Positions 17,129 to 36,084 of a stretch of DNA of 46,479 nucleotides are shown here, in pieces (position 1 is the first letter of the stretch; the number at the start of each line of letters is the position of its first letter). This stretch comes from Candidatus Dadabacteria bacterium (lineage in GTDB: Bacteria > Desulfobacterota_D > UBA1144 > Nemesobacterales > CSP1-2): NCBI GenBank assembly GCA_040289575.1, contig PSLL01000004.1:54740-101218 (forward strand). Reading direction: 5' to 3'. Both the position numbers and the translations under genes were made by a program. A model generated the notes under the pieces. That model saw nothing but the letters and a program-made list of their open reading frames with translations, did not search any database and was not told the origin of the DNA.

Positions 17129-17206
17129 TGGCGGGGGCGATGGGACTTGAACCCGCGACCTCTGGCTTGACAGGCCAGCGTTCTAACCGGGCTGAACTAC
17201 GGCCCC
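17129..17206 (-). tRNA. tRNA-Asp(GTC)
   Basis: Cloverleaf, anticodon arm CTGGC-CT GTC AA-GCCAG, encoded CCA; one mismatch each in the acceptor and T stems. Confidence 0.93.
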
Positions 17207-17249
17207 CAAGATTAGTTGATAACTAAGAACTATCAACTCTCAACTAACA

Positions 17250-17324
17250 TGGTGGGCGGTACTGGTTTCGAACCAGTGACCTCTTGCTTGTAAGGCAAGC
17301 GCTCTTCCACTGAGCTAACCGCCC
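17250..17324 (-). tRNA. tRNA-Val(TAC)
   Basis: GGGCGGTTAGCTCAG...CTTGC-CT TAC AA-GCAAG...GGTTCGAAACC...ACCGCCCACCA. Confidence 0.96.
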
Positions 17325-23302: not shown

Positions 23303-23384
23303 TGCGAGAGGGGGGAGTTGAACCCCCACGGGAAATCCCACTGGATCCTAAGTCCAGCGCGTCTGCCAGTTCCGCCACTCTCGC
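23303..23384 (-). tRNA. tRNA-Leu(TAG), CCA not encoded
   Basis: GCGAGAGTGGCGGAA...CTGGA-CT TAG GA-TCCAG, long variable arm, GGTTCAACTCC. Confidence 0.95.
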
Positions 23385-23435
23385 TTGCGGTTCCCTAAAA
23401 TCCTCCCTCTTTGATCGCTACCCCAGATCCCGGAG

Positions 23436-23509
23436 TGGGCTGCGAGGGATTCGAACCCACGACCCAGTGATTAAGAGTCACTTGCTCTACCAAGCTGAGC
23501 TAGCAGCCC
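23436..23509 (-). tRNA. tRNA-Lys(CTT), CCA not encoded
   Basis: GGGCTGCTAGCTCAG...AGTGA-CT CTT AA-TCACT...GGTTCGAATCC...GCAGCCCA. Confidence 0.95.
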
Positions 23510-24412: not shown

Positions 24413-25105
24413 TTAAATTTCTAATCTACTGCAATCACTCTTTAACAGCAATCTGATCCTGTCAAACACCACCGATACCACACGATCGCAACGTGTGGCA
24501 TCAAACTGGAATGCACCCACAGTCGCAATCCCGATGCGTGAATAGATCTCTTCGCGCAGTAAAGCACGCGCCCTGTGCAAGCGTGTCTTGACGGTCTCCT
24601 CAGTAATGTCGAGACACTCAGCCATTTCAGCAGTGCTCATCCCCTCAATCTCCCTCGGCACGAAAACCGAACGATAACTCTCAGGCAGTGAATCAACCGC
24701 GGCTTCTAATACCGCCTTCAGTTCCCCGGTTAGTAATTGCTGCTCGGGATCAGGTGTTTTGGATATACCCATACCCTCCCTCCATGATTTTGATACCAAG
24801 TCAATATCCACAAATCGGCCGCGTCGGCGAACCCGCGCCAAAGCCTCATTTACGGCGATCTTTGTCAGCCAGGTTGAGAATTTAGCCCGTCCAGAAAACT
24901 GATTAAGGTGTGTGTATGCATGGACGTAGGCGTCTTGCATCACATCCTCCGCCTCGCTGTCATCCCCCAGTATGGCACGAGATACACGGTAGAGCCGCTG
25001 GTTGTACCGACGCATGAGGATTTCAAATAGCGTGATTTCACCGGCGAGTATTAGCCTCTCCACCTCTTCGTCGGACATAGCATCGGCATTTGCTCCGGTA
25101 CTCAT
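24413..25105 (-). CDS. ECF RNA polymerase sigma factor with a C-terminal RCD extension (ECF29-like)
   Basis: Region 2 AEDVMQDAY...FSTWL, region 4 TVKTRLHRAR, tail AFQFDATRCDRVV; no anti-sigma gene adjacent. Confidence 0.9.
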   Translation of the reverse strand: MSTGANADAMSDEEVERLILAGEITLFEILMRRYNQRLYRVSRAILGDDSEAEDVMQDAYVHAYTHLNQFSGRAKFSTWLTKIAVNEALARVRRRGRFVDIDLVSKSWREGMGISKTPDPEQQLLTGELKAVLEAAVDSLPESYRSVFVPREIEGMSTAEMAECLDITEETVKTRLHRARALLREEIYSRIGIATVGAFQFDATRCDRVVSVVFDRIRLLLKSDCSRLEI

Positions 25106-25274: not shown

Positions 25275-25700
25275 ATGAAGCGAATAAGCATAGGTTTAAT
25301 GCTCTTGGCTCTCTGTCTTCTGGCTTTAGGAGGCAGTGCACAGACTGCTCTGTCACAGGAGATGGCCCCTCCAGGAGGCAAGTACAAGAAAGTTAGCTCG
25401 CTTGTGAAATTGCCAGATTTTCTCCCCGGCCTCGGAACGCTTTATGTAGACCCAGACACACTACCAGCAGGCCCATTCCTGGCCTATGACCGTGAAGGCC
25501 ACCTTGCCAGCACAGTCTATATGATTCCACTTAAAGACATCAACGACCACAAGGCCTTCAACAATCTGGCCGTTGCACAGGGACAAAAGGTAGACCACGT
25601 TGATATATACTATAGTGCGGGACATCCGGGCGTGCCCGAGCCGCACTATTACATCATACTTTGGTATATCTCACCTGAGAAGGCGGCAGCACTCCCGTAG
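25275..25700 (+). CDS. Secreted protein, TTHB210-like/DUF5602-like
   Basis: Signal peptide; PGLGTLYVDP..LP.GP and VDHVDI...GHPG..EPHY motifs; strong RBS. Confidence 0.65.
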   Translation: MKRISIGLMLLALCLLALGGSAQTALSQEMAPPGGKYKKVSSLVKLPDFLPGLGTLYVDPDTLPAGPFLAYDREGHLASTVYMIPLKDINDHKAFNNLAVAQGQKVDHVDIYYSAGHPGVPEPHYYIILWYISPEKAAALP

Positions 25701-25708
25701 GAGGCATT

Positions 25709-26269
25709 ATGCCGACACGGCGAGAGTTCATCAAGACCGGCGGGTTGGCTCTCGTCGGCCTTGTATTCTACAACACACCTAGACCCCACACACCACACAC
25801 GGCTCATGTTGTTGAGATCTATATGAAGAGCGATAATCTGGGCAGTAGGGTATGGTTTGATCCTATCGGAATATATATCGAACCCGGGCAAACGGTACGG
25901 TGGATTGTTGTTGAGAATGTACACACGACATCTGCATACCATCCTCGAAATAGCAACCATTCACTGCGGATTCCCCCAAATGCTACCCCCTGGGATTCTG
26001 GATTTTTGTCACCCGGTGAACACTTTGATGTAAAACTCAAGACACAAGGTATCTACGATTACTACTGTACGGCACATGAAGAGGCAGGCATGGTAGGGCG
26101 TATTATTGTCGGAAAGCCCACCGGACCAGGTGCTTTACCATTCAACTACTACGTGGGAAGATCAGATACAACAAACTGGCGACCAGTACCTCCTGCAGCC
26201 CAGAAAGCATTTCCAAGCATAGAGCAGATAATGCGTGAAAAGGTTGTCCGACTCAGATGGACAATATAA
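25709..26269 (+). CDS. Tat-exported blue copper protein (halocyanin/plastocyanin-like)
   Basis: TRREFIK twin-arginine signal; type-1 Cu ligands H (NVHT) and C-T-A-H-E-E-A-G-M. Confidence 0.88.
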   Translation: MPTRREFIKTGGLALVGLVFYNTPRPHTPHTAHVVEIYMKSDNLGSRVWFDPIGIYIEPGQTVRWIVVENVHTTSAYHPRNSNHSLRIPPNATPWDSGFLSPGEHFDVKLKTQGIYDYYCTAHEEAGMVGRIIVGKPTGPGALPFNYYVGRSDTTNWRPVPPAAQKAFPSIEQIMREKVVRLRWTI

Positions 26270-26292: not shown

Positions 26293-26955
26293 TCAAAAGT
26301 AGACCAATCTATAAATTACAGGCCAGAGCAGGACAACAAAATACCAGAATATTCCGCATGTCTCTAAGTCAACCATATTCTTAGGAAATTTCTTTACTAT
26401 TGCACGAATGGAAGCGGCAATTAGCCACAGACATGATATAAGAACATGAATAGCATGGAACCCTACAATTATATAGAATATAGAACCATATATACTCGAT
26501 GTCATTGTAAGTCCATAGGCTACTAACTTAATCCATTCATTTTCCTGAAGAACAAGGAATAAAATTCCAAGAATTATTGTAAGGATAAGAAAAAAAGTCA
26601 GTTTTTTATAACTCGTATCCCCCTTGTGCCAATTTCTCCTGAAGAGAAACATCGTCAACCCACTTAAAAGAAGAACGGCGGTATTTAAAGCAGTCGTTTG
26701 AGCAGGGTATCTTGGTTGGCCCGGAGGGGGCCAGGGAGAAAGGTTATGTTTATAAGCAAGGAATGACCCGAGAAGTCCCCCAAATAGCATTATCTCAGAA
26801 AGTATAAAAAGCATTAATGCAAACCTGGCAAGGGCAAGGCGTGAGCGGAGATGATCATCTCCGCCATTTCTCCTTCCCATCCCAATATTGATAGGCTTAG
26901 ACTTCTTTTCAACAGGTTGCCTTTTTATTCCTATTTCCGCAATCTGTTGCATCAT
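26293..26955 (-). CDS. Heme-copper oxidase subunit III (second copy)
   Basis: FILSEIMLFGG, NT.VLL.SG, GFHAIHV, FWYFV. Start reassigned to ATG 26955, overlapping the subunit IV stop. Confidence 0.88.
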   Translation of the reverse strand: MMQQIAEIGIKRQPVEKKSKPINIGMGRRNGGDDHLRSRLALARFALMLFILSEIMLFGGLLGSFLAYKHNLSPWPPPGQPRYPAQTTALNTAVLLLSGLTMFLFRRNWHKGDTSYKKLTFFLILTIILGILFLVLQENEWIKLVAYGLTMTSSIYGSIFYIIVGFHAIHVLISCLWLIAASIRAIVKKFPKNMVDLETCGIFWYFVVLLWPVIYRLVYF

Positions 26956-27257
26956 CTCTTTAAAGTCACAATAGCATCCGGCATAAACCCAAAGAACGCT
27001 ATTATCAGGAGTGTTAATGGCACTAAAACGGCACATACTATCAGTATCTTTTCAAATCTTAGGTGCATAAAGTTCAGTGCTATCAAAACCGCTTTTATCC
27101 CCGCGAGGGCAAAGAGGATAAATGCGGCTAAATACCTAAACTCTATATGGTGCCTGGGATTCAGTATGACGGATGTTAGTATGCTCAATGTCGTAAGCCC
27201 GCAAAGTACAATCCATACAAGAAGATAGTTGGGATGAGTAAGGTGTTTATTAGCCAT
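26952..27257 (-). CDS. Cytochrome c oxidase subunit IV (caa3-type)
   Basis: Three TM helices; KAVLIALNFMHLRFE motif. Confidence 0.88.
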   Translation of the reverse strand: MANKHLTHPNYLLVWIVLCGLTTLSILTSVILNPRHHIEFRYLAAFILFALAGIKAVLIALNFMHLRFEKILIVCAVLVPLTLLIIAFFGFMPDAIVTLKR

Positions 27258-27284: not shown

Positions 27285-27905
27285 TCATGAGAGATAGAAG
27301 AGCGGAAGAAGAAACACCCAAACAATGTCCACGAAATGCCAGAAGAGTCCTGCATTCTCAACAAGAGAACCCGGGTTACCCGGTTTTTTCTTACGGCTAA
27401 TTAGGATTAGGACAACTGTATTTATAACGGTTCCTGTAAAAACGTGTACCGCGTGAAAACCCGTTAAACCGTAATAAAAAGCCCAGAACGGCCCCGAATG
27501 GAAACCATATCCGTGTTCGATCTCTCCCGCATATTCTATAGCTTTAATCGCTAAGAACAAAAGACCTGATATGATCGTAAGAAATATATATAGATATGCA
27601 GACCTAAGATTCCTCTCATCCACCATTTTATGCGCGAGAACGATTGTGAAGCTACCCGTAATAAGCACGAATGTGTTTATAGAACCTGTTAAGGCGTTAG
27701 TTTCACCAGAGAACTCATGCCACTGCGGATAACTCAGCCTAAAAAGAACGCAGGTTATAATGAGTCCGCCGAAAATAAGGACTTCACCGGATAGAAACAC
27801 CCACATCCCCACCTTTGATGATGGTATGCCGACTGAAGACTGACCAACTGCGCTCTGCGATTCCAAAGACTCTATTCCTACATTAGTGTTTTCCAATTGG
27901 TGCAT
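27285..27905 (-). CDS. Heme-copper oxidase subunit III
   Basis: KVGMWVFLSGEV..FGG, TGFHAVHV, GLFWHFVDIVW. Confidence 0.92.
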   Translation of the reverse strand: MHQLENTNVGIESLESQSAVGQSSVGIPSSKVGMWVFLSGEVLIFGGLIITCVLFRLSYPQWHEFSGETNALTGSINTFVLITGSFTIVLAHKMVDERNLRSAYLYIFLTIISGLLFLAIKAIEYAGEIEHGYGFHSGPFWAFYYGLTGFHAVHVFTGTVINTVVLILISRKKKPGNPGSLVENAGLFWHFVDIVWVFLLPLFYLS

Positions 27906-29610
27906 CTGTTCCCTCCCTAAATACCTCCTCTCTAGAAATGAGTATACCCTGGGGCTTGAAGTCTTCTCGCTCCTCTTCCGGAGAATACTCGTAAGGGTCG
28001 TTTACAACTATGGGAACCATGCCGTTCCAGTTATGGTGGGGCGGGGGGGATTCCGCAAGCCACTCAAGGGTAGTAGCCTTCCACGGATTGCGTTCCGCCT
28101 GCTTGCCCTTAAATATGCTTACAAAGAAATTGATGATAAATGGGGCCTGGGATGCGATAAGTAATATTGCCCCAACAGTTGATAGGACATGAATCCATTG
28201 AAAGTGCCTTAGGTAATCAATGTGTGTAATGTCATAATATCTCCTCGGACCCCCTGCAATTCCTAAAAAGAATAGAGGAAATGCAAAGATATTAAACCCT
28301 ATAAAGGTTCCCCAGAAGTGAACCTTGCCCCAGGATTCACTCATCTTTCTCCCAAACATCTTGGGAAACCAGTAGTATATACCCGCAAAGCTAGCCAAAA
28401 TGACAGATGGAAAGATCGTATAGTGAAAATGGGCTATTACGAAATACGTATCGTGGAGGTAAACATCTAATACTTGAGCTCCCAGAAATAATCCCGTAAG
28501 GCCGCCGATGATAAATGCAACAAAGCTCCCCAATGCGAAAAGAAAGGAGGAGGTAAACCTTATTGAACCATTCCATAATGTTAAGGCAAGACAGACAAGT
28601 ATTACAGAAAACGGAACGGAGATTGCAATTGTTGTAACAGCAAATGGGTATGAAAGGGACGGATTCATTCCTGAGACAAACATGTGATGACCCCATACTA
28701 CAAAGCTCAGTATGGCCGAAGCTATTGTCGCATATACAATTGATTTATATCCAAATATAGGTTTTCTGGTATGGGACGCAAAAACCTCGGCTATTATCCC
28801 AAGCCCGGGAATTAAAACCACATAAACCTCCGGATGCCCGAAGAACCAGAAGATATGTTGCCACAAGAGCGGATCCCCCTGACTCTGAGCCGTCACCCTG
28901 AAAAATGAGGTTCCCACAATTACATCAAGCAAAAGAAACCCAACTCCGGCCACAAGCGGGGTTACGGAAAGCAGAAAAATAAGGGCAGCAATAAACTGCA
29001 TCCATACAATTATAGGAAGCCGCATCATACTCAAGCCCCTTGTACGAAGGTTAATAGTCGTAGTAATGTAGTTTATTCCGCCCATAAGCATGGAGGCAAA
29101 CTCAAGAATGAGGGCGAAAAGAAAAAGGATCCCCCCCATCTTGGCTCCTGTAAATCGCGGATCCGCCGAAAGCGGTGGGTAGATTGTCCAACCAAAGGGC
29201 GCCGGGCCGCCGGGGACAAAGAACGATGAAAAGAGAACTATACTTGAGATGAAAAACACCCAGTATGAGAGCATATTCAATCCTGGAAATGCCATATCCT
29301 TTGCGCCCACCATAAGCGGTATGCAGAGATTCGCAAACGCGCCTATTAAAAGCGGCATGGCAACCCAGAAGATCATAATTGCTCCGTGCATTGTAACAGA
29401 CGCATTGTATGACTCCGGGGTAAGTATCGCTCCGGGTGATGCAAGCTCGGTCCTGAAAAACAACGCTAGTAGAGCCGCTGTTAGCGCCCATATAAGGGCA
29501 GTAATAAGGTACTGAATAGCGATTACCTTATGGTCTGTTGAAAATATATATCTCCTAATAAAACCCTGGTGTTCGGTGTGCGCATCTTCAATTGTGATTA
29601 TACTCTCCAT
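27883..29610 (-). CDS. Heme-copper oxidase subunit I, A family (A1 motif), K-channel residues absent
   Basis: STDHK, TMHG, DMAFP.LN, GWTIYPPL, WFFGHPEVY, WGHHMF, HDTYFVIAHFHY, PRR. Confidence 0.96.
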   Translation of the reverse strand: MESIITIEDAHTEHQGFIRRYIFSTDHKVIAIQYLITALIWALTAALLALFFRTELASPGAILTPESYNASVTMHGAIMIFWVAMPLLIGAFANLCIPLMVGAKDMAFPGLNMLSYWVFFISSIVLFSSFFVPGGPAPFGWTIYPPLSADPRFTGAKMGGILFLFALILEFASMLMGGINYITTTINLRTRGLSMMRLPIIVWMQFIAALIFLLSVTPLVAGVGFLLLDVIVGTSFFRVTAQSQGDPLLWQHIFWFFGHPEVYVVLIPGLGIIAEVFASHTRKPIFGYKSIVYATIASAILSFVVWGHHMFVSGMNPSLSYPFAVTTIAISVPFSVILVCLALTLWNGSIRFTSSFLFALGSFVAFIIGGLTGLFLGAQVLDVYLHDTYFVIAHFHYTIFPSVILASFAGIYYWFPKMFGRKMSESWGKVHFWGTFIGFNIFAFPLFFLGIAGGPRRYYDITHIDYLRHFQWIHVLSTVGAILLIASQAPFIINFFVSIFKGKQAERNPWKATTLEWLAESPPPHHNWNGMVPIVVNDPYEYSPEEEREDFKPQGILISREEVFREGTDAPIGKH

Positions 29611-30307
29611 AAGCTGTATACTCCGATTTATCGTTTTCCTCCAACCACGCCCTATAATTCTTTAAAAATCTTTCATATTCGTCTTTACTGACAACCTTTA
29701 ATTTTGCCTGCATCATAAAATGCCCCGGACCGCAAAGCTGTGTACATGTAATAGGATAATCGCCCACCTTCTTTGATATAAACCACTCCGTGGTTTCTCT
29801 GCCAGGGACCGCATCGTATTTCACTCTTAGATTAGGTATGAAGAGTGAATGTATAACATCCCCGGAGGTAAGTGTGAGAATTACCGTTGTATCTACAGGA
29901 ACTACAAGATAGTTACCAAGGGTAAAGTCATCATTGGTCCCGAATTTTCTATCCAGTCCGGGATAAACAAAGCTCCAGAAGAACTGCCTTCCAATGACCC
30001 TTGTCTCTACGTAATTTTTATGTTCTTCAATCAATTCTTTTCTACCCTGTATCACATGGCTCCACCCTACAGAACTAAAAGAGACCATAACAATGTCAAG
30101 TATAAGCAAAACTACATCCAAGTATACGAGCTTAGAAATGAGCCCTAATTTGCGCGTTGCTCTGGGATTTTTAGATTTACGGAATGCAATCAGAGAGTAT
30201 CCGATTATTACAAATGAGAGTATAGCTACAGCAACGGTTATGACAGATACTAAGATCATAGTATTATCAATCCAATACCCGTATGCAGAAATATCCTTTG
30301 GCCACAT
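29588..30307 (-). CDS. Cytochrome c oxidase subunit II (CuA)
   Basis: Two TM helices; DVIHS...CTQLCGPGHFMM CuA motif. Confidence 0.93.
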   Translation of the reverse strand: MWPKDISAYGYWIDNTMILVSVITVAVAILSFVIIGYSLIAFRKSKNPRATRKLGLISKLVYLDVVLLILDIVMVSFSSVGWSHVIQGRKELIEEHKNYVETRVIGRQFFWSFVYPGLDRKFGTNDDFTLGNYLVVPVDTTVILTLTSGDVIHSLFIPNLRVKYDAVPGRETTEWFISKKVGDYPITCTQLCGPGHFMMQAKLKVVSKDEYERFLKNYRAWLEENDKSEYTAYGEYNHN

Positions 30308-30309
30308 AT

Positions 30310-31503
30310 CTAGCTTGAGTTCTCCTTATGATACTTTTCATGTAGAAATTCTACATAAGAGACAAGGTTCCATATTTGATCAGGGGGAAGTGAAAAACCA
30401 GGCATCGGTGTCCCTTTTATACCAAGCCGTATCGTTCTGTATATCTGTTCTGGCGACCCCTTTTTGAATGGTTCGGTTGCAAAATTCCTCGGCAATATAT
30501 CTATGGGCTTGCCGTCTTGCCCAAGCCAATTGGTTTCCAGATCAAGTCGCTTCGCATTCTTCCCTAAATCCTCTATATCACCGTGGCACACACCGCATGC
30601 GGCTTGAAAAAACGTTCTGCCCTTCTGTATCCTATCATCTACAGGTTTAAAATTGTCGGTTTTCAAAGCCTCAGCCAAGTCATCCGGCACCTTCAGGTCA
30701 ACGACGGCAGGGTCTGGTTTCTTCATTCCGAACCTCCATTGCATGTATCCGAAGCCCATAACATATTCAGTAAGCGCTTTGATCTCCTCTTCGGTTAGAT
30801 CGGCAAACCCCGGCATAGGGGTTCCAGGAAGACCATTTCTTATCGTATCCTCTATATCTTCCTCCAGAGCGGGACCTTGCTGGGCCGAGCTAAATTTAAA
30901 AACCACTTTTCCGTCTTTTACTATATTCCCATCACCTCTAATAAAATGGGATTCACCGGTAAAATCCCTTGGGGCAACCGCGAGTTTTTCAGGGGTCCTC
31001 GGATGGCCGTTTCCCTTCTCGCCATGACACGATACACACCGGTATTCGTAAAGGTTCTGCCCTTCTTCCATGAGTTTAAAATCAGGCTCCCAGTATATCT
31101 CTAGTTCTCCCAAAAGGTTTTTAATATCCTCAATTTGTGGAATATCTGGATGTGATCCGTTGGACAGAAGGGCTATGGTGCCTTCGACTAGACTGTTGTT
31201 TTCATCTTTGGGCAGAACCTGTTTTAGTTTGCCAACGTTTGATCTCACCTCCTCTAGTCTCTCTTTCAGACCCTCTACTTTTTCTCCTTCCATCTTTGTC
31301 TTTTTAAGCCCGTCCACTGCGGCATCTATTGCTGAATCTATTTCTTTTACCTTAGCGGTTCTAAATGAAATCTCCTTCGCTCTGAGCGCCTCCTCTTTAA
31401 CCTCCTGAGGATACAAACTCGAACCCGCCTTAATGAAAAAAAATGATAGAGACATGGCCAGTGCTATACAAAGAACGGCTATTACAGAAAGGAAAACCCT
31501 CAT
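30310..31503 (-). CDS. Membrane-anchored di-heme cytochrome c
   Basis: N-terminal TM; CVSCH and CGVCH, each followed by PRDF/PRNF and GTPMPGF (Met ligand). Start is either ATG 31503 or GTG 31515. Confidence 0.9.
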   Translation of the reverse strand: MRVFLSVIAVLCIALAMSLSFFFIKAGSSLYPQEVKEEALRAKEISFRTAKVKEIDSAIDAAVDGLKKTKMEGEKVEGLKERLEEVRSNVGKLKQVLPKDENNSLVEGTIALLSNGSHPDIPQIEDIKNLLGELEIYWEPDFKLMEEGQNLYEYRCVSCHGEKGNGHPRTPEKLAVAPRDFTGESHFIRGDGNIVKDGKVVFKFSSAQQGPALEEDIEDTIRNGLPGTPMPGFADLTEEEIKALTEYVMGFGYMQWRFGMKKPDPAVVDLKVPDDLAEALKTDNFKPVDDRIQKGRTFFQAACGVCHGDIEDLGKNAKRLDLETNWLGQDGKPIDILPRNFATEPFKKGSPEQIYRTIRLGIKGTPMPGFSLPPDQIWNLVSYVEFLHEKYHKENSS

Positions 31504-31664
31504 CGCAGGAACCACCGTTCAGATTCTAAAAAGCTAAACGACTAATATAATAGACTACCTTAAGTCGAATGTGTTTCAACTGACTTTTTATATCTTTCGA
31601 TACTTCTGACATAAGTTTCGGCGTATATTCCGTTGTATTGTGTCATAACAAATTCTTATGGTGA

Positions 31665-32912: not shown

Positions 32913-33343
32913 TGAAGCTCCCCCACCACAGGTGGGGACTTCTTTAAAAAATCCTTATGAGCAGCGTAGTAGCCTCTAAAAAAGACTTAACTGTCTACAA
33001 GAAATCTCCTCATACTTATGATACTCTATGTACTTGCGTATCTGCTCTGCTGTAACCTCATCTCCCACTGTCTTTACAAAATACCCTCTCTCCCAGAAAT
33101 TGATTCGCCATAGCTTTAGCTCCTTCCTATCTATCAATCTCCATCTGGTGATTTGAAGCTATCTCCTGAAAGATTTCTTCAACTCGACTTCTTATCTCTT
33201 TCCTATCTATCCACCCCCTGTATTTAGGAGTCCAAACAATGTGATATTTGGTATCATGTGGGGTACGTTTCAGTGTCATACAAAACTGTATCACACTGAG
33301 TGTGCCTTTCATCCCCCACTACAAATGGGGGCTTTCAGGCACA
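32913..33343 (-). mobile_element. tnpA: Internally deleted IS200/IS605-family element (tnpA remnant 32976-33279) with both end hairpins
   Basis: KYHIVWTPKYR N-part and FWERGYFVKTVG...IRKYIEYH C-part lie in different frames and the HUH motif is absent. Hairpins at 32914-32942 and 33301-33343. Confidence 0.88.
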
Positions 33344-33431: not shown

Positions 33432-33964
33432 ATGAGAGGTTTTGTTTGGGGATTAATAATTGGAATGATTTTTCTCTTATCGGCTGGACTCAGCACCGAA
33501 TCAGCTGAAGAATGGCAAACCCTAGAGCTCAGGATATTTGGTGTATGTCCGGCCTGTGATAGCGATGTCAAATCAAGGGTCTTAAGCATTCCCGGAGTCG
33601 CTGAGGCTAATCTTGATCTTATCAAAAAGAAACTCTTTGTGACATTTGATCTGGAATCTGTAAGTGAGACGAAAATAATAATAGCTCTGGAGGAGGGGGG
33701 TATGAAGTAAGGCGTCCATTTAGGAAGAAGAGGCTTGAGAGGGTGATCCTTGAGGTCTCTGGAATAAAGGATAAAAGCGAGATAACCGAGATCGAAAGGA
33801 CGTTCTATGCCTTCTATGATGTAGATAGAGTGGAGATATCAAAGCACTCGGGTAATCTCATTACAACCATAGATTTTAGAAGGGATGGGCTTGACCCAGG
33901 GCAGTTGGTTATGTCACTGAAGGACAGCTTGCCCCATGCATGTGTGGAAATAATACCAAGCTGA
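33432..33964 (+). CDS. Secreted two-domain HMA (heavy-metal-associated) protein, split by a 1-nt indel
   Basis: Signal peptide, GVCPAC, PGV..A..D. Adding one G to the G6 run (33695-33700) joins both ORFs via GGYEVRRPFRKKRLERVILEVSGI. Confidence 0.72.
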
Positions 33965-34764: not shown

Positions 34765-36084
34765 ATGAAAAAGAAACTCATAATGATTGGCTTGGCATTG
34801 GCGATGCTTTTTAGCATTGAATATGCAAGGCAAGTTCAAGCCCACACGACAGTTAGCTTCAATCTGTTTTTCGATGCCCTTGCCCCCTATGGCAACTGGG
34901 TATCAACGCCGGACTACGGATATGTATGGTCTCCCACTGATGTGGGACCTGATTGGGAGCCTTACACTAACGGATACTGGGTCTGGACAGATTACGGATG
35001 GACATGGGTCTCTTATGAGCCTTGGGGCTGGGCCCCGTTTCACTATGGAAGATGGGTATATACCGATTATTATGGATGGGTCTGGATACCCGGTACTGTT
35101 TGGGCACCTGCATGGGTTACATGGTATAAAAGCCCTGACTACATAGGATGGGCACCCCTTCCACCCGACGAGCGATTCTCGCTCGAAGTAGGCATAAGTT
35201 TTTCCAACCGTAATTACTATGTACCATACAGGGATGTTGTGTTTGTTCCTTCGCACGCTTTCCTAAGTACTCACATTCGTAATGTAATCGTTCCGCGATC
35301 GAGAAATATTACTATTATCAGAAACACGAAAGTCATAAACAACATAACAATTCAAAATAACAGGGTTATAAATCGGGGCCCTGATGTGAATTTTGTTGAG
35401 AGAGCTACAAGAGCAAGGATTCAAAAGGTGAATCTGGTTGATAGAGATGTAGACCAGCGTACGGTTATCAGAGGCGGTAAAATTAACCAAATAAAAGGAA
35501 AGGACTTTTATGTATACCGTCCCGATGTGATTAGGAAGGGAAATGAAGCACCCGTAATTAAAAAGAATGTTGAAAAAAATACTATCCAAAACAGAAACAG
35601 AAATGTAGAAATCGAGAATAAAAACAGGAAAAATGTAGAAATCCGAAACGAGGGCTACCTCACACCTAATCAAGGGCATACGGTATTTAATAGGGATGCC
35701 GAAAACAACCCTATGAAAATCAAGAATAAAAATAAAGAAGTCTACAACCCAAATGAAAAAAAGATTAAGAAACAGGAAAGAATTGAAAACCGGAATAACC
35801 CTCAGAACCCGAAGCCGCATCAACAGTACCCAATGAGACGGGATGATAATAATAGAAAAGGGAATCCTTTTGTAATGCAAGATACCTTTAAATCCCACAG
35901 CCCTGTTATACGTCCAGAAAACCGCCAGCCGGTATATAGAAATACCGAGAAAGAGGCTCCACATTATCAATTTAATTCGGACATTAAAGGACAGAAGTTC
36001 CAGAAGAAGGACTTTGGACAGCACCCAAACAACAGAAACCTGGATTCACGCCGAAACCATAAGCAAATCGATCGGAACGGTTAA
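34765..36084 (+). CDS. Secreted DUF6600-like protein (W/Y/G/P-rich repeats plus N/K/R-rich disordered tail)
   Basis: LAPYGNW, WEPYTNG.W, EPWGWAPFHYGRW, WAPAWV.W, IGWAPLPP. Confidence 0.85.
   Translation: MKKKLIMIGLALAMLFSIEYARQVQAHTTVSFNLFFDALAPYGNWVSTPDYGYVWSPTDVGPDWEPYTNGYWVWTDYGWTWVSYEPWGWAPFHYGRWVYTDYYGWVWIPGTVWAPAWVTWYKSPDYIGWAPLPPDERFSLEVGISFSNRNYYVPYRDVVFVPSHAFLSTHIRNVIVPRSRNITIIRNTKVINNITIQNNRVINRGPDVNFVERATRARIQKVNLVDRDVDQRTVIRGGKINQIKGKDFYVYRPDVIRKGNEAPVIKKNVEKNTIQNRNRNVEIENKNRKNVEIRNEGYLTPNQGHTVFNRDAENNPMKIKNKNKEVYNPNEKKIKKQERIENRNNPQNPKPHQQYPMRRDDNNRKGNPFVMQDTFKSHSPVIRPENRQPVYRNTEKEAPHYQFNSDIKGQKFQKKDFGQHPNNRNLDSRRNHKQIDRNG

What the first reader, a model, noticed from the sequence alone, without database searches (positions are those of the whole stretch)
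27883..30307. A-family heme-copper oxidase that has lost the K proton channel
Helix VIII aligns without gaps to the R. sphaeroides aa3 sequence as I recall it ([25 protein letters not shown]) but reads TTIAISVPFSVILVCLALTLWNGSI, i.e. T359F, K362I, S365C (DNA 28561-28630). S299 is Ala (GIIAEV), and subunit II lacks the ExxWT K-entry glutamate (KLVYLDVV). The D-channel (Y33, N121, D132, N139, N207, E286), cross-link Tyr, six His ligands and Arg pair are all intact. K362 mutants of canonical enzymes lose oxidase turnover yet keep peroxidase activity. Coordinated loss in two subunits of an otherwise intact operon suggests a distinct subfamily: a D-channel-only oxidase, an alternative proton route, or a different substrate such as H2O2 or NO.
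Basis: partly seen in the sequence, partly recalled or inferred. Interest (0 to 1): 0.85.

Follow-up and report, generated by a model that had tools for sequence, protein, structure and literature searches.

The report
Cytochrome oxidase lacking the K-channel lysine
This operon encodes an oxygen-reducing cytochrome c oxidase from a large, widespread bacterial lineage that lacks the textbook 'K' proton-channel residues in both core subunits but carries its own conserved replacements; such lysine-free oxidases have been noted in print, though I found no biochemical study of this lineage.

Summary
CoxA (27883-29610, minus strand) is an A1-type heme-copper oxidase. The R. sphaeroides positions T359, K362, S365 and S299 read F334, I337, C340 and A274. 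CoxB has no ExxWT motif.

This is neither decay nor error:
- dN/dS against a 90%-identical relative is 0.08.
- 132 of 161 related loci share the lysine-free state.
- They form one well-supported clade next to lysine-bearing CoxN-type oxidases.

- Glu170 replaces S197 in the D-channel.
- Ser sits at the K-channel-lining positions G327 and A356.
- An Asp (D71) in CoxB helix 2 is present in 121 of 121 lysine-free loci and has no counterpart in 26 of 26 lysine-bearing ones.

A predicted complex puts D64 and D71 on the CoxB face that touches CoxA helix VIII.

In two single-chromosome genomes this oxidase is the only heme-copper oxidase found. Neither has cytochrome bd and both have heme A synthase.

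Best reading: a working O2 reductase with rebuilt proton supply, not a peroxidase or NO reductase.

K-channel-less family-A oxidases are already described (Degli Esposti et al. 2020, 2021). This is therefore a variant of a known kind, and the route is unproven.

The parts
30310..31515 (-). Membrane-anchored diheme cytochrome c, directly upstream of coxB; likely electron donor or extra subunit
   Evidence: Pfam Cytochrom_C/Cytochrome_CBB3 with 2 stretches. Two CxxCH motifs in the translation. A diheme cytochrome c also lies upstream of coxB in L019 and L023, and a 401-aa ORF stands at the same place in L095 (80% identical).
29588..30307 (-). CoxB (subunit II, 239 aa) with a CuA site; the usual Glu between the two Cys is Gln190
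   Evidence: PF00116. TIGR02866 152.9 bits against a cut-off of 147.7. H153, C188, C192, H196 and M199 are invariant in 43 lysine-free CoxB. CxQxC occurs in 13 of 125 lysine-free CoxB, CxExC in 110.
30062..30142 (-). CoxB transmembrane helix 2 (about residues 56-82). It lacks ExxWT and carries D64 (30116-30118) and D71 (30095-30097).
   Evidence: Asp at the D71 column in 121 of 121 lysine-free loci with this region recovered. In 26 of 26 lysine-bearing loci that column is a gap and the LExxWT Glu is present. D71 is invariant in A1. Residues 63-64 and 71 are on the predicted CoxA-facing side.
27883..29610 (-). CoxA (subunit I, 575 aa), A1-type (HPEVY) heme-copper oxidase
   Evidence: PF00115 456 bits. 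Best PDB relatives are mycobacterial aa3 at 1e-125. TIGR02891 578 bits, below its 670.75 cut-off. All metal ligands mapped.
28561..28635 (-). Helix VIII (residues 326-350): F334 (T359), I337 (K362), C340 (S365), plus clade-specific S331 (A356)
   Evidence: Clade statistics. S331 is invariant in A2.
29101..29103 (-). Glu170 codon, at the position of D-channel residue S197 on helix IV; followed by F171 (G198) and M174 (S201)
   Evidence: Mapping. E or D in 132 of 132 lysine-free loci and in 0 of 29 lysine-bearing loci. Invariant in A2.
28789..28791 (-). Ala274 codon at the position of K-channel residue S299
   Evidence: Ser here in 0 of 132 lysine-free loci and 29 of 29 lysine-bearing loci.
27285..27905 (-). 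CoxC (COX3-like, 206 aa); its start overlaps the end of coxA
   Evidence: PF00510. Conserved downstream of coxA in the related loci.
26952..27257 (-). CoxD (subunit IV, 101 aa)
   Evidence: PF03626. TIGR02229 42.3 bits against a cut-off of 37.25.
26293..27036 (-). Second COX3-like subunit. The true start is probably the ATG at 26955 or 26952, overlapping the coxD stop.
   Evidence: PF00510 86.7 bits from residue 71. Candidate starts. A COX3 doublet is found across the related loci.
25709..26269 (+). Cupredoxin (plastocyanin/azurin family) with a twin-arginine-like N-terminus; a possible electron carrier, link to the oxidase not shown
   Evidence: PF00127; below the NCBIfam cut-offs. Reading the N-terminus as twin-arginine-like is my own.

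Best explanation
The operon encodes a working, heme-A-type, CuA-containing cytochrome c oxidase that reduces O2. It belongs to a distinct A1-type clade. Its operon has a COX3 doublet, and its nearest relatives are the lysine-bearing CoxMNOP-type oxidases.

On the stem of this clade the canonical K-pathway side chains were all replaced by non-polar residues: E101 of subunit II, and S299, K362 and T359 of subunit I. In the same clade other residues became fixed:
- an Asp in the middle of subunit II helix 2 (D71), with a second ionisable residue two turns below it (His in most members, D64 here);
- Ser at the K-channel-lining positions G327 and A356;
- a Glu at D-channel position S197 (E170).

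Most likely mechanism (inferred, not shown): protons for the reductive half-cycle reach the His-Tyr/heme a3-CuB site by a rebuilt route. This route would run along the interface between helix VIII of subunit I and helix 2 of subunit II, through D64 and D71 to S331/S302 and Y263. The D-channel (D105 to E261, now with E170 as an extra carboxylate) would carry the other protons.

Shown: the residue pattern, its conservation and co-variation, clade membership, purifying selection, and sole-oxidase status in two genomes.
Inferred: O2 reduction, heme A, and the proton route.
For: 1. Catalytic core intact. Six His ligands, Y263 (Y288), E261 (E286), R456/R457 and the H386/D387 pair map exactly. The CuA ligands are invariant.
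2. Under selection. dN/dS against L095 is 0.076 for coxA and 0.077 for coxB.
3. A clade trait.
   - 120 of 120 nearest cluster representatives lack Lys.
   - Of 161 loci, 132 lack Lys; all 132 have Glu or Asp at position 170 and none has Ser at 274. The 29 with Lys have Ser at 274 and no acid at 170.
   - The clade is monophyletic: support 100 in FastTree (49 of 199 rows) and 100 in IQ-TREE (22 of 65 rows).
4. Subunit II co-varies. Asp at the D71 column in 121 of 121 lysine-free loci. In 26 of 26 lysine-bearing loci that column is a gap and the LExxWT Glu is kept. The D64 column is His in 102 of 121 lysine-free loci.
5. K-lining positions turn polar. The columns of G327 and A356 are Ser in 99-100% of the clade; lysine-bearing sequences have Gly 75% and Ala 89% there. 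PMC10341450 (passages read) uses G327 and A356 as corners of the K-channel volume and S197 as a corner of the D-channel volume.
6. Predicted CoxA-CoxB complex.
   - Score 0.88, best control 0.00. The mark was reached by 58 of 80 solved complexes and 2 of 110 mismatched pairs.
   - Runs agree in at least 97% of contacts; partner pLDDT at least 82. Like complexes are solved, so the pass may be from memory.
   - CoxB residues 57-58, 60-61, 63-64, 67-68, 71 and 74-75 are interface residues. So are CoxA helix VIII residues 328-329, 331-332, 335-336 and 338-339. F334 and I337 are not.
   - Both Asp, S331, and position 336 (an invariant Glu in the large subclade) are therefore all listed at the subunit interface.
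7. Physiology. In two single-record chromosome assemblies (G003, 4.6 Mb; G004, 2.6 Mb) the lysine-free locus is the only PF00115 match. Neither has cytochrome bd, PF01654. Both have heme A synthase, PF02628.
Against: - No coordinates were available. I could not measure any distance, or test whether a hydrated path joins D64/D71 to Y263, or E170 to E261.
- The complex tool lists interface residues but no helix VIII-helix 2 pairs. The register I give is my inference.
- An invariant buried Asp could be purely structural.
- The lower entry is not conserved. The column of the canonical Glu is Q 35, E 31, L 30 and other residues among 121. D64 itself occurs only in the query and L095 (2 of 121).
- F334 and I337 place bulky non-polar groups where the canonical path runs.
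- Completeness of G003 and G004 is not reported, so 'sole oxidase' rests on their being single-chromosome records.
- In the window's own genome a canonical A2-type oxidase with Thr and Lys also exists, so here the enzyme may be accessory.
- No biochemical data for any member were found.
Confidence: 0.5

Rival explanations
1. D-channel-only oxidase, one of the first reader's options. The K-route is truly closed. All chemical and pumped protons enter through D105 and reach the active site through E261. The extra Glu170 at the S197 position is the adaptation that makes this possible. The subunit II Asp is only structural.
For: - The D-channel entrance and E261 are 100% conserved in the clade.
- E170 (or Asp) is present in 132 of 132 lysine-free loci and 0 of 29 lysine-bearing loci.
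- S197 is a D-channel residue in PMC10341450 (passage read).
- F334 and I337 fill the canonical K-path.
- The entry column of subunit II is not conserved.
Against: - It leaves unexplained the invariant mid-membrane Asp of subunit II (121 of 121), its His/Asp partner two turns below, the invariant Glu at position 336 in the large subclade, and the Ser at two K-lining positions.
- In canonical enzymes, K362 variants are blocked in the reductive phase although the D-channel is intact. This is established knowledge, restated in PMC10341450.
Confidence: 0.27
2. The enzyme has changed substrate and works mainly as a peroxidase or an NO reductase rather than an O2 reductase.
For: Only by analogy. A-family oxidases show some NO reduction (PMC11214002, passage read).
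Against: - The His-Tyr motif and three CuB His are invariant.
- PMC11214002 (passages read) says the cross-linked Tyr is what O2 reduction requires, and that the characterised NORs (cNOR, qNOR) lack it and bind Fe through an extra Glu.
- It is the sole heme-copper oxidase found, with no bd oxidase and with heme A synthase, in two single-chromosome genomes.
- No nitrogen-oxide genes were seen next to the operon.
Confidence: 0.05
3. Decay or sequencing error: a dying paralogue whose channel residues drifted.
For: The window's genome has other heme-copper oxidases, including a canonical A2-type with Thr and Lys.
Against: - Open frames with overlapping starts and stops across five genes.
- dN/dS of 0.08.
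- The same residues recur in 132 loci down to 47% identity.
Confidence: 0.01
4. The lysine-free state is ancestral rather than a secondary loss. This clade would never have had the K-pathway, as Degli Esposti et al. argue for the oxidases of iron-oxidizers.
For: In the IQ-TREE tree, other lysine-free lineages (P0125/P0168, P0147, P0153) sit unresolved at the base of the 41-row group that holds this clade. The B-family outgroup branch is very long (9.06), so the root is unsafe.
Against: - The two nearest clades (CoxN-type, 7 rows; the Rokubacteria/Methylomirabilis type, 8 rows) carry Ser/Thr, Lys, S299 and the subunit II Glu together.
- Regaining that four-residue, two-subunit set is less likely than losing it.
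- The other lysine-free lineages carry different residues at these columns.
Confidence: 0.15

Closest known systems
Canonical A1-type aa3 cytochrome c oxidases (R. sphaeroides 1m56/6pw0, P. denitrificans 1ar1, mycobacterial CIII2CIV2 7rh6/6adq)
   Same: 12-helix subunit I, gap-free in the catalytic helices, E about 1e-115 to 1e-125. Same six His, HPEVY Glu and Tyr, Arg pair, D-channel entrance and CuA subunit II.
   Different: S299, T359, K362 and S365 of subunit I and the ExxWT Glu of subunit II are replaced. S197 is Glu, G198 is Phe and S201 is Met. G327 and A356 are Ser. Subunit II helix 2 has an Asp at a column with no counterpart in lysine-bearing relatives. It scores below the TIGR02891 equivalog cut-off.
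CoxMNOP 'alternative cytochrome c oxidase' / COX operon subtype a-III (doublet of COX3 homologues; PMC6431628 and PMC4986455, passages read)
   Same: A1-type subunit I. Operon with two COX3-like genes plus a subunit IV. One of the two nearest clades in both trees. About 44-46% identity.
   Different: Ralstonia, Bradyrhizobium and Skermanella CoxN keep 'IPTA(I/L)KVY', and their CoxM keeps a Leu-Glu-Trp/Leu-Trp motif. They have no Glu at the S197 column. Their gene order is cox3-cox3'-IV, against cox3-IV-cox3' here.
K-channel-less family-A COX of acidophilic iron-oxidizers and relatives (Degli Esposti et al., bioRxiv 10.1101/2020.03.01.968255, sections 7-8 read; PMC8239418, passages read)
   Same: - Lys replaced by a hydrophobic residue such as Ile in COX1, and the helix 2 Glu substituted in COX2, with the D-channel kept.
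- The CuA-associated Glu is also missing in the query (Gln190).
- A diheme cytochrome c lies upstream and a cupredoxin nearby.
- Variants with duplicated COX3 are reported in Gemmatimonadetes, a phylum well represented in the present clade.
   Different: - Those COX1 are described as A2-type, deep-branching and (2021 paper) with two extra N-terminal helices.
- The query is A1-type. It has only 16 residues before the part that aligns to 12-helix structures. It branches beside CoxN-type oxidases.
- No Acidithiobacillus sequence could be fetched, and the papers' supplements were closed. Whether this clade is in their tables is unknown.
B-family ba3 oxidases (T. thermophilus 1ehk/1xme): a lysine-free K-channel analogue
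   Same: Works like: a proton route to the active-site Tyr without any Lys, built from hydroxyl side chains, with a subunit II carboxylate at its entrance. This is recalled knowledge; PMC11214002 (passages read) mentions the B-family K-channel and its conserved Ser.
   Different: Not a member. E about 1e-11 to ba3 against 1e-125 to aa3. The D-channel and E286 are present here. The helix VIII positions used by ba3 are non-polar here.

Membership tests
Heme-copper oxidase superfamily, O2-reducing | Six His ligands of the low-spin heme, high-spin heme and CuB | tested here: met
   H75, H259, H308, H309, H394 and H396 map to H102, H284, H333, H334, H419 and H421. All are invariant in 56 clade members.
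Heme-copper oxidase superfamily, O2-reducing | Cross-link Tyr one turn after the first CuB His (helix VI) | tested here: met
   Y263 = Y288 in HPEVY; invariant. The covalent link itself cannot be seen in sequence.
A-family, type A1 | Glu of the helix VI HPEVY motif at the top of the D-channel | tested here: met
   E261 = E286; 100% in the clade.
A-family, type A1 | D-channel residues D132, N121, N139, N207, Y33, S142, S197, S200, S201 | tested here: inconclusive
   The entrance and Asn gate are all present and 100% conserved. The upper part differs: S197 is Glu, G198 is Phe and S201 is Met. S200 is kept in the query.
A-family, type A1 | K-channel residues K362, T359 and S299 (subunit I) and E101 (subunit II) | tested here: not met
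   I337, F334, A274, and no ExxWT motif. The same holds in 132 of 161 related loci.
A-family, type A1 | CuA-binding subunit II (2 His, 2 Cys, Met) | tested here: met
   H153, C188, C192, H196 and M199 are invariant. The Glu between the Cys is Gln190 in the query.
NCBIfam TIGR02891 CtaD_CoxA (equivalog) | Score at or above the curated cut-off of 670.75 bits | tested here: not met
   578.2 bits.
COX operon subtype a-III / CoxMNOP type | Two consecutive COX3 homologues in the operon | tested here: met
   PF00510 at 27285-27905 and 26293-27036. Here they are separated by subunit IV. Named CoxMNOP loci have cox3-cox3'-IV.
COX operon subtype a-III / CoxMNOP type | Subunit I groups with named CoxN proteins | tested here: inconclusive
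   A neighbouring clade, not inside it. Union supported at 96 in FastTree. It is an unresolved three-way split in IQ-TREE.
K-channel-less COX of iron-oxidizers (rus-type) | Lys replaced by a hydrophobic residue in COX1 and the helix 2 Glu replaced in COX2 | tested here: met
   as described in 10.1101/2020.03.01.968255, section 7.
K-channel-less COX of iron-oxidizers (rus-type) | Two extra N-terminal helices in COX1 (PMC8239418); classed as A2-type (preprint) | tested here: not met
   The alignment to 12-helix structures starts at query residue 17. The HPEVY Glu is present, so it is A1-type.
K-channel-less COX of iron-oxidizers (rus-type) | Direct sequence kinship with Acidithiobacillus CoxA/CoxB; outer-membrane Cyc2 and rusticyanin in the cluster | not tested
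A cupredoxin (25709-26269) and a diheme cytochrome c are present. No Cyc2-like gene was recognised upstream, but I made no dedicated search.

The most novel reading that the evidence does not exclude
This clade is a third architectural type of A-family oxidase. The K-pathway has been moved off the inner face of helix VIII onto the subunit I/subunit II interface. There it is carried by subunit II carboxylates or His (D71, D64/His), plus Glu at position 336 of subunit I in most members. The D-channel ends in two glutamates (E170 and E261). If so, nature has already done the experiment of removing K362, T359, S299 and E101(II) together while keeping a competent, probably pumping, O2 reductase that can serve as an organism's only terminal oxidase.
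Probability: 0.35. Interest if true: 0.7.

Novelty: new variant of a known kind. Interest (0 to 1): 0.5.

Why it matters
Why A-type oxidases need two proton input channels, and what K362 really does in the reductive half-cycle, are long-running questions. So far they have been approached with crippling point mutants.

This is a large natural clade spanning Myxococcota, Gemmatimonadota, Verrucomicrobiota, Bdellovibrionota, SAR324, Binatia and others. It has dropped all four canonical K-pathway residues yet is under strong selection. In some genomes it is the only oxidase found. That offers a functional, evolved counter-example.

Isolate genomes hold it: Pelagicoccus sp. (L019) and Puniceicoccaceae strain K14 (L014), whose record titles are not marked as MAGs. 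Turnover, H+/e- ratio and the roles of the subunit II Asp and the extra Glu should therefore be open to direct test.

It also matters for annotation. The protein falls below the CtaD equivalog cut-off, and relatives are labelled 'cbb3-type'. Pathway predictions that score oxidases by K-channel residues would misjudge it.

Tried and rejected
- **Expression.** The look-up of sequencing runs listed no RNA holder. I laid no reads and make no claim on expression.
- **Literature.** Searches were.
  - Only the Degli Esposti papers treat K-channel-less A-family oxidases.
  - None of these searches asked for the S197-to-Glu change or the subunit II Asp as such. I did not meet either in the passages I read, and the library lacks most subscription journals.
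  - The 2020 BBA review by Degli Esposti was not held.
  - Supplementary figures and tables of the 2020 preprint and the 2021 paper classify K-channel variants and about twenty COX1 subclades.
- **Organism names.** The listing of cluster members gave no organism names.
- **Acidithiobacillus or Thioclava sequences.**
  - None of the 40 listed rows of the plasmid search came from these genera. The four top-ranked records I opened, H1, H3, H31 and H38, all keep the Lys.
  - I therefore could not test kinship with the iron-oxidizer enzyme.
- **Channel analysis on a model.** No tool returns coordinates. Structure prediction and fold search were not used, because they would only confirm the fold.
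- **Rooting.** Rooting with the genome's own B-like fragment gave a 9.06-long branch. I do not rely on the root.
- **ACIII linkage.** The upstream genes I sampled in L002, L019, L023 and L095 showed no ACIII-like families.
- **Rows dropped before counts.** In one search, 4 lysine-free and 2 lysine-bearing CoxB lacked the helix 2 region (contig ends). 8 of the 161 loci yielded no CoxB at all.
- **Circularity.** In one search the groups were defined by the Lys column itself. That column is circular; the others are not.
- **First submission.** One search was turned back because the confidence field was misplaced. This call repeats the same report with that field corrected.

Full report
**What is there.**

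The minus strand between 26293 and 31515 carries a tight operon:
- a membrane-anchored diheme cytochrome c (30310-31515);
- CoxB (29588-30307);
- CoxA (27883-29610);
- a COX3-like CoxC (27285-27905);
- subunit IV (26952-27257);
- a second COX3-like gene (26293-27036), whose real start is probably the ATG at 26955 or 26952 that overlaps the coxD stop.

On the other strand lie a cupredoxin (25709-26269) and a TTHB210-like protein (25275-25700). An ECF sigma factor (24413-25105) follows on the minus strand.

**Checking the observation.**

- phmmer against all PDB chains finds A-family subunit I proteins. The best are mycobacterial aa3 at 1e-125; ba3 reaches only about 1e-11.
- The printed alignment has no gap in helices VI-VIII. 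The query's 'vpfsvilv' lies opposite 'vptgikff', and 'giiaev' opposite 'givsei'.
- To use R. sphaeroides numbers without relying on memory, I took a canonical CtaD from a Skermanella plasmid. I aligned it to 6pw0_A/1m56_A, which gave the numbering of S197, S200, S201, N207, E286, Y288, S299, T359 and K362. I then aligned it to the query.
- K-channel positions changed: T359=F334, K362=I337, S365=C340, S299=A274.
- D-channel positions kept: Y33, N121, D132, N139, S142, N207 and E286.
- Also present: Y288, the six His ligands and the Arg pair.

Two things were missed:
1. The upper D-channel is altered (S197=E170, G198=F171, S201=M174).
2. CoxB helix 2, though lacking ExxWT, carries D64 and D71.

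**Not decay, not chance.**

- Against a 90%-identical metagenomic relative (L095), dN/dS is 0.076 for coxA and 0.077 for coxB.
- All 120 of the 120 closest 90%-identity cluster representatives (54-90% identical) lack Lys at the K362 column.
- I pooled the 80 best species genomes, the 80 best metagenome contigs and the query, 161 loci in all.
  - 132 lack the Lys. All 132 have Glu (128) or Asp (4) at position 170, and none has Ser at position 274.
  - The other 29 have Lys, Ser at 274 and no acid at 170.
- Subunit II co-varies perfectly.
  - Lysine-free loci: the D71 column is Asp in 121 of 121 with that region recovered.
  - Lysine-bearing loci: in 26 of 26 it is a gap, because helix 2 is four residues shorter, and the LExxWT Glu is present.
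- The changes are phylogenetically one event, not 132. What counts is their retention down to 47% identity.

**The clade and its neighbours.**

- A FastTree of 199 rows gives the lysine-free sequences as one clade (49 rows, support 100). An IQ-TREE of 65 rows agrees (LG+C20+F+G4, SH-aLRT; 22 rows, support 100).
- The nearest neighbours are two lysine-bearing groups.
  - One is the CoxN type. Ralstonia 'coxN', Bradyrhizobium and Skermanella loci have the COX3 doublet, keep 'IPTA(I/L)KVY' and keep the CoxM Glu.
  - The other is a Rokubacteria/Methylomirabilis type.
- Secondary loss is thus the more economical reading. The root is unsafe, however, and other lysine-free lineages sit nearby unresolved.
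- A large subclade is nested inside (Myxococcota, Gemmatimonadota, SAR324 and others). It has an invariant Glu at position 336 (R. sphaeroides 361). It also has His at the D64 column of subunit II, in 96 of 97.
- Lysine loss is not rare in the family. Among the 150 best 50%-cluster representatives, 89 have Lys, 59 do not and 2 are gapped there. The state changes at least 15 times on the 199-row tree.

**Clade signature** (133 and 57 lysine-free rows against 93 lysine-bearing rows; invariance in A1 and A2).

| Position (R. sphaeroides) | Lysine-free clade | Lysine-bearing sequences |
|---|---|---|
| 170 (S197) | Glu 99-100% | S/A/L |
| 171 (G198) | Phe | Gly 91% |
| 174 (S201) | Phe/Met | Ser 87% |
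| 298 | Ala/Thr | Ile 100% |
| 302 (G327) | Ser 99-100% | Gly 75% |
| 331 (A356) | Ser 100% | Ala 89% |

PMC10341450 (passages read) uses S197, S200 and S201 among the corners of the D-channel volume. It uses G327 and A356 among those of the K-channel volume. The new polar residues therefore sit on known channel walls.

**Where the subunit II Asp residues sit.**

- A CoxA+CoxB complex was predicted from my alignments A2 and A1.
  - It scored 0.88 against a best control of 0.00. The mark was reached by 58 of 80 solved complexes and 2 of 110 mismatched pairs.
  - Runs agreed in at least 97% of contacts, and the partner pLDDT was at least 82.
  - Like complexes are solved, so the pass may be from memory. 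I use it only for geometry.
- Interface residues of CoxB helix 2 are 57-58, 60-61, 63-64, 67-68, 71 and 74-75.
- Interface residues of CoxA helix VIII are 328-329, 331-332, 335-336, 338-339 and 342-343.
- F334 and I337 are not listed, although the tool warns that unlisted residues are merely uncertain.
- D64, D71, S331 and position 336 are thus all listed at the subunit interface.
- The register (D64 near 335/336, D71 near 328-331) is my inference from the opposite helix directions. It was not printed by the tool.

**Physiology.**

- In two single-record chromosome assemblies (G003, a 4.6 Mb Myxococcota genome; G004, a 2.6 Mb Longimicrobiales genome), the lysine-free locus is the only PF00115 match.
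- Neither has cytochrome bd. Both have heme A synthase.
- Completeness is not reported for these handles.
- The window's own genome (95% complete) also has a canonical A2-type oxidase with Thr and Lys, a B-like gene in two pieces, and fragments of another A1-type gene. Its heme A synthase lies beside the A2-type gene.
- A diheme cytochrome c precedes coxB in L019 and L023 as well, and a 401-aa ORF 80% identical to the window's stands there in L095.

**Interpretation.**

The enzyme is most likely a working aa3-type cytochrome c oxidase. The canonical K-pathway is gone.

- Best reading (about 0.5): a rebuilt input route at the helix VIII/subunit II interface, alongside a modified D-channel.
- Rival (about 0.27): all protons use the D-channel, with E170 as the enabling change.
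- A change of substrate has no support.
- Nothing here measures proton transfer.

**Comparison with what is known.**

- Degli Esposti and co-workers describe family-A COX1 with the Lys replaced by residues such as Ile, and COX2 without the helix 2 Glu. They report these in acidophilic iron-oxidizers and in relatives from Thioclava, Actinobacteria, Chloroflexi and Gemmatimonadetes, some with duplicated COX3 (bioRxiv 10.1101/2020.03.01.968255, sections 7-8 read).
- Weighing an archaeal-origin scenario that they go on to reject, they note it would require seven independent K-channel losses (PMC8239418, passages read).
- Their iron-oxidizer proteins are called A2-type, and have two extra N-terminal helices. 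The query has neither feature.
- The COX3-doublet operon is their 'a-III' subtype (PMC6431628 and PMC4986455, passages read).
- The phenomenon is therefore known. The S197-to-Glu change, the invariant subunit II Asp and the sole-oxidase status did not appear in what I could read. I ran no search aimed at these features, and the papers' supplements were closed.

**Verdict.**

This is a new variant of a known kind, of moderate interest. Isolates that carry it make the question experimentally approachable.

Noticed in passing
window 32976-33312 (minus strand): Two short adjacent ORFs match the two ends of the IS200-like Y1 transposase (PF01797 profile positions 3-43 and 90-120). This is a broken IS200/IS605 transposase remnant upstream of the oxidase operon.
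   Followed up: partly
window 33432-33710 (+): Small protein with an N-terminal hydrophobic stretch and a heavy-metal-associated (HMA) domain with a CxxC motif (PF00403). It may be a copper-handling protein near a copper enzyme operon. The neighbouring 73-aa ORF at 33743-33964 has no family.
   Followed up: partly
window 29738-29740 (CoxB Gln190): The residue between the two CuA cysteines is Gln instead of the usual Glu. CxQxC is found in 13 of 125 lysine-free CoxB, CxExC in 110 and CxKxC in 2. The 2020 preprint reports loss of this Glu as peculiar to proteobacterial iron-oxidizers.
   Followed up: partly
own genome G000: C116:106209-107013, C88:1438-2777, C59:5348-6670: Besides the window's oxidase, the genome has a canonical A2-type oxidase with heme A synthase next to it (C59). 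It has a B-like subunit I in two overlapping frames (C88). It also has an A1-type gene broken into at least five pieces, one holding a stop codon (C116).
   Followed up: partly
representative proteins P0121-P0270: Several other, separate A-family lineages lack the Lys. One group reads 'ISIPSVIILT'. A second has Phe then Asp/Glu ('ISLPFD', 'ISIPFE'). A third group of about 780-860 residues has Gln or His in place of Lys. The state changes at least 15 times on the 199-row tree.
   Followed up: partly
L019:9842-11470 (Pelagicoccus sp. locus): A group II intron reverse transcriptase/maturase gene lies directly downstream of the lysine-free oxidase operon.
   Followed up: no
window 17132-17324 and 23303-23509 (minus strand): Two pairs of tRNA genes (Rfam RF00005).
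   Followed up: no
window 34765-36084 (+): A 439-aa secreted-looking protein with DUF6600 and a long, Asn/Lys/Arg-rich low-complexity tail.
   Followed up: no
names: Many members of this clade and of the CoxN type are labelled 'cbb3-type cytochrome c oxidase subunit I' in public records, although they are A-family enzymes with CuA subunits. The query falls below the CtaD equivalog cut-off, which probably explains the generic name.
   Followed up: partly
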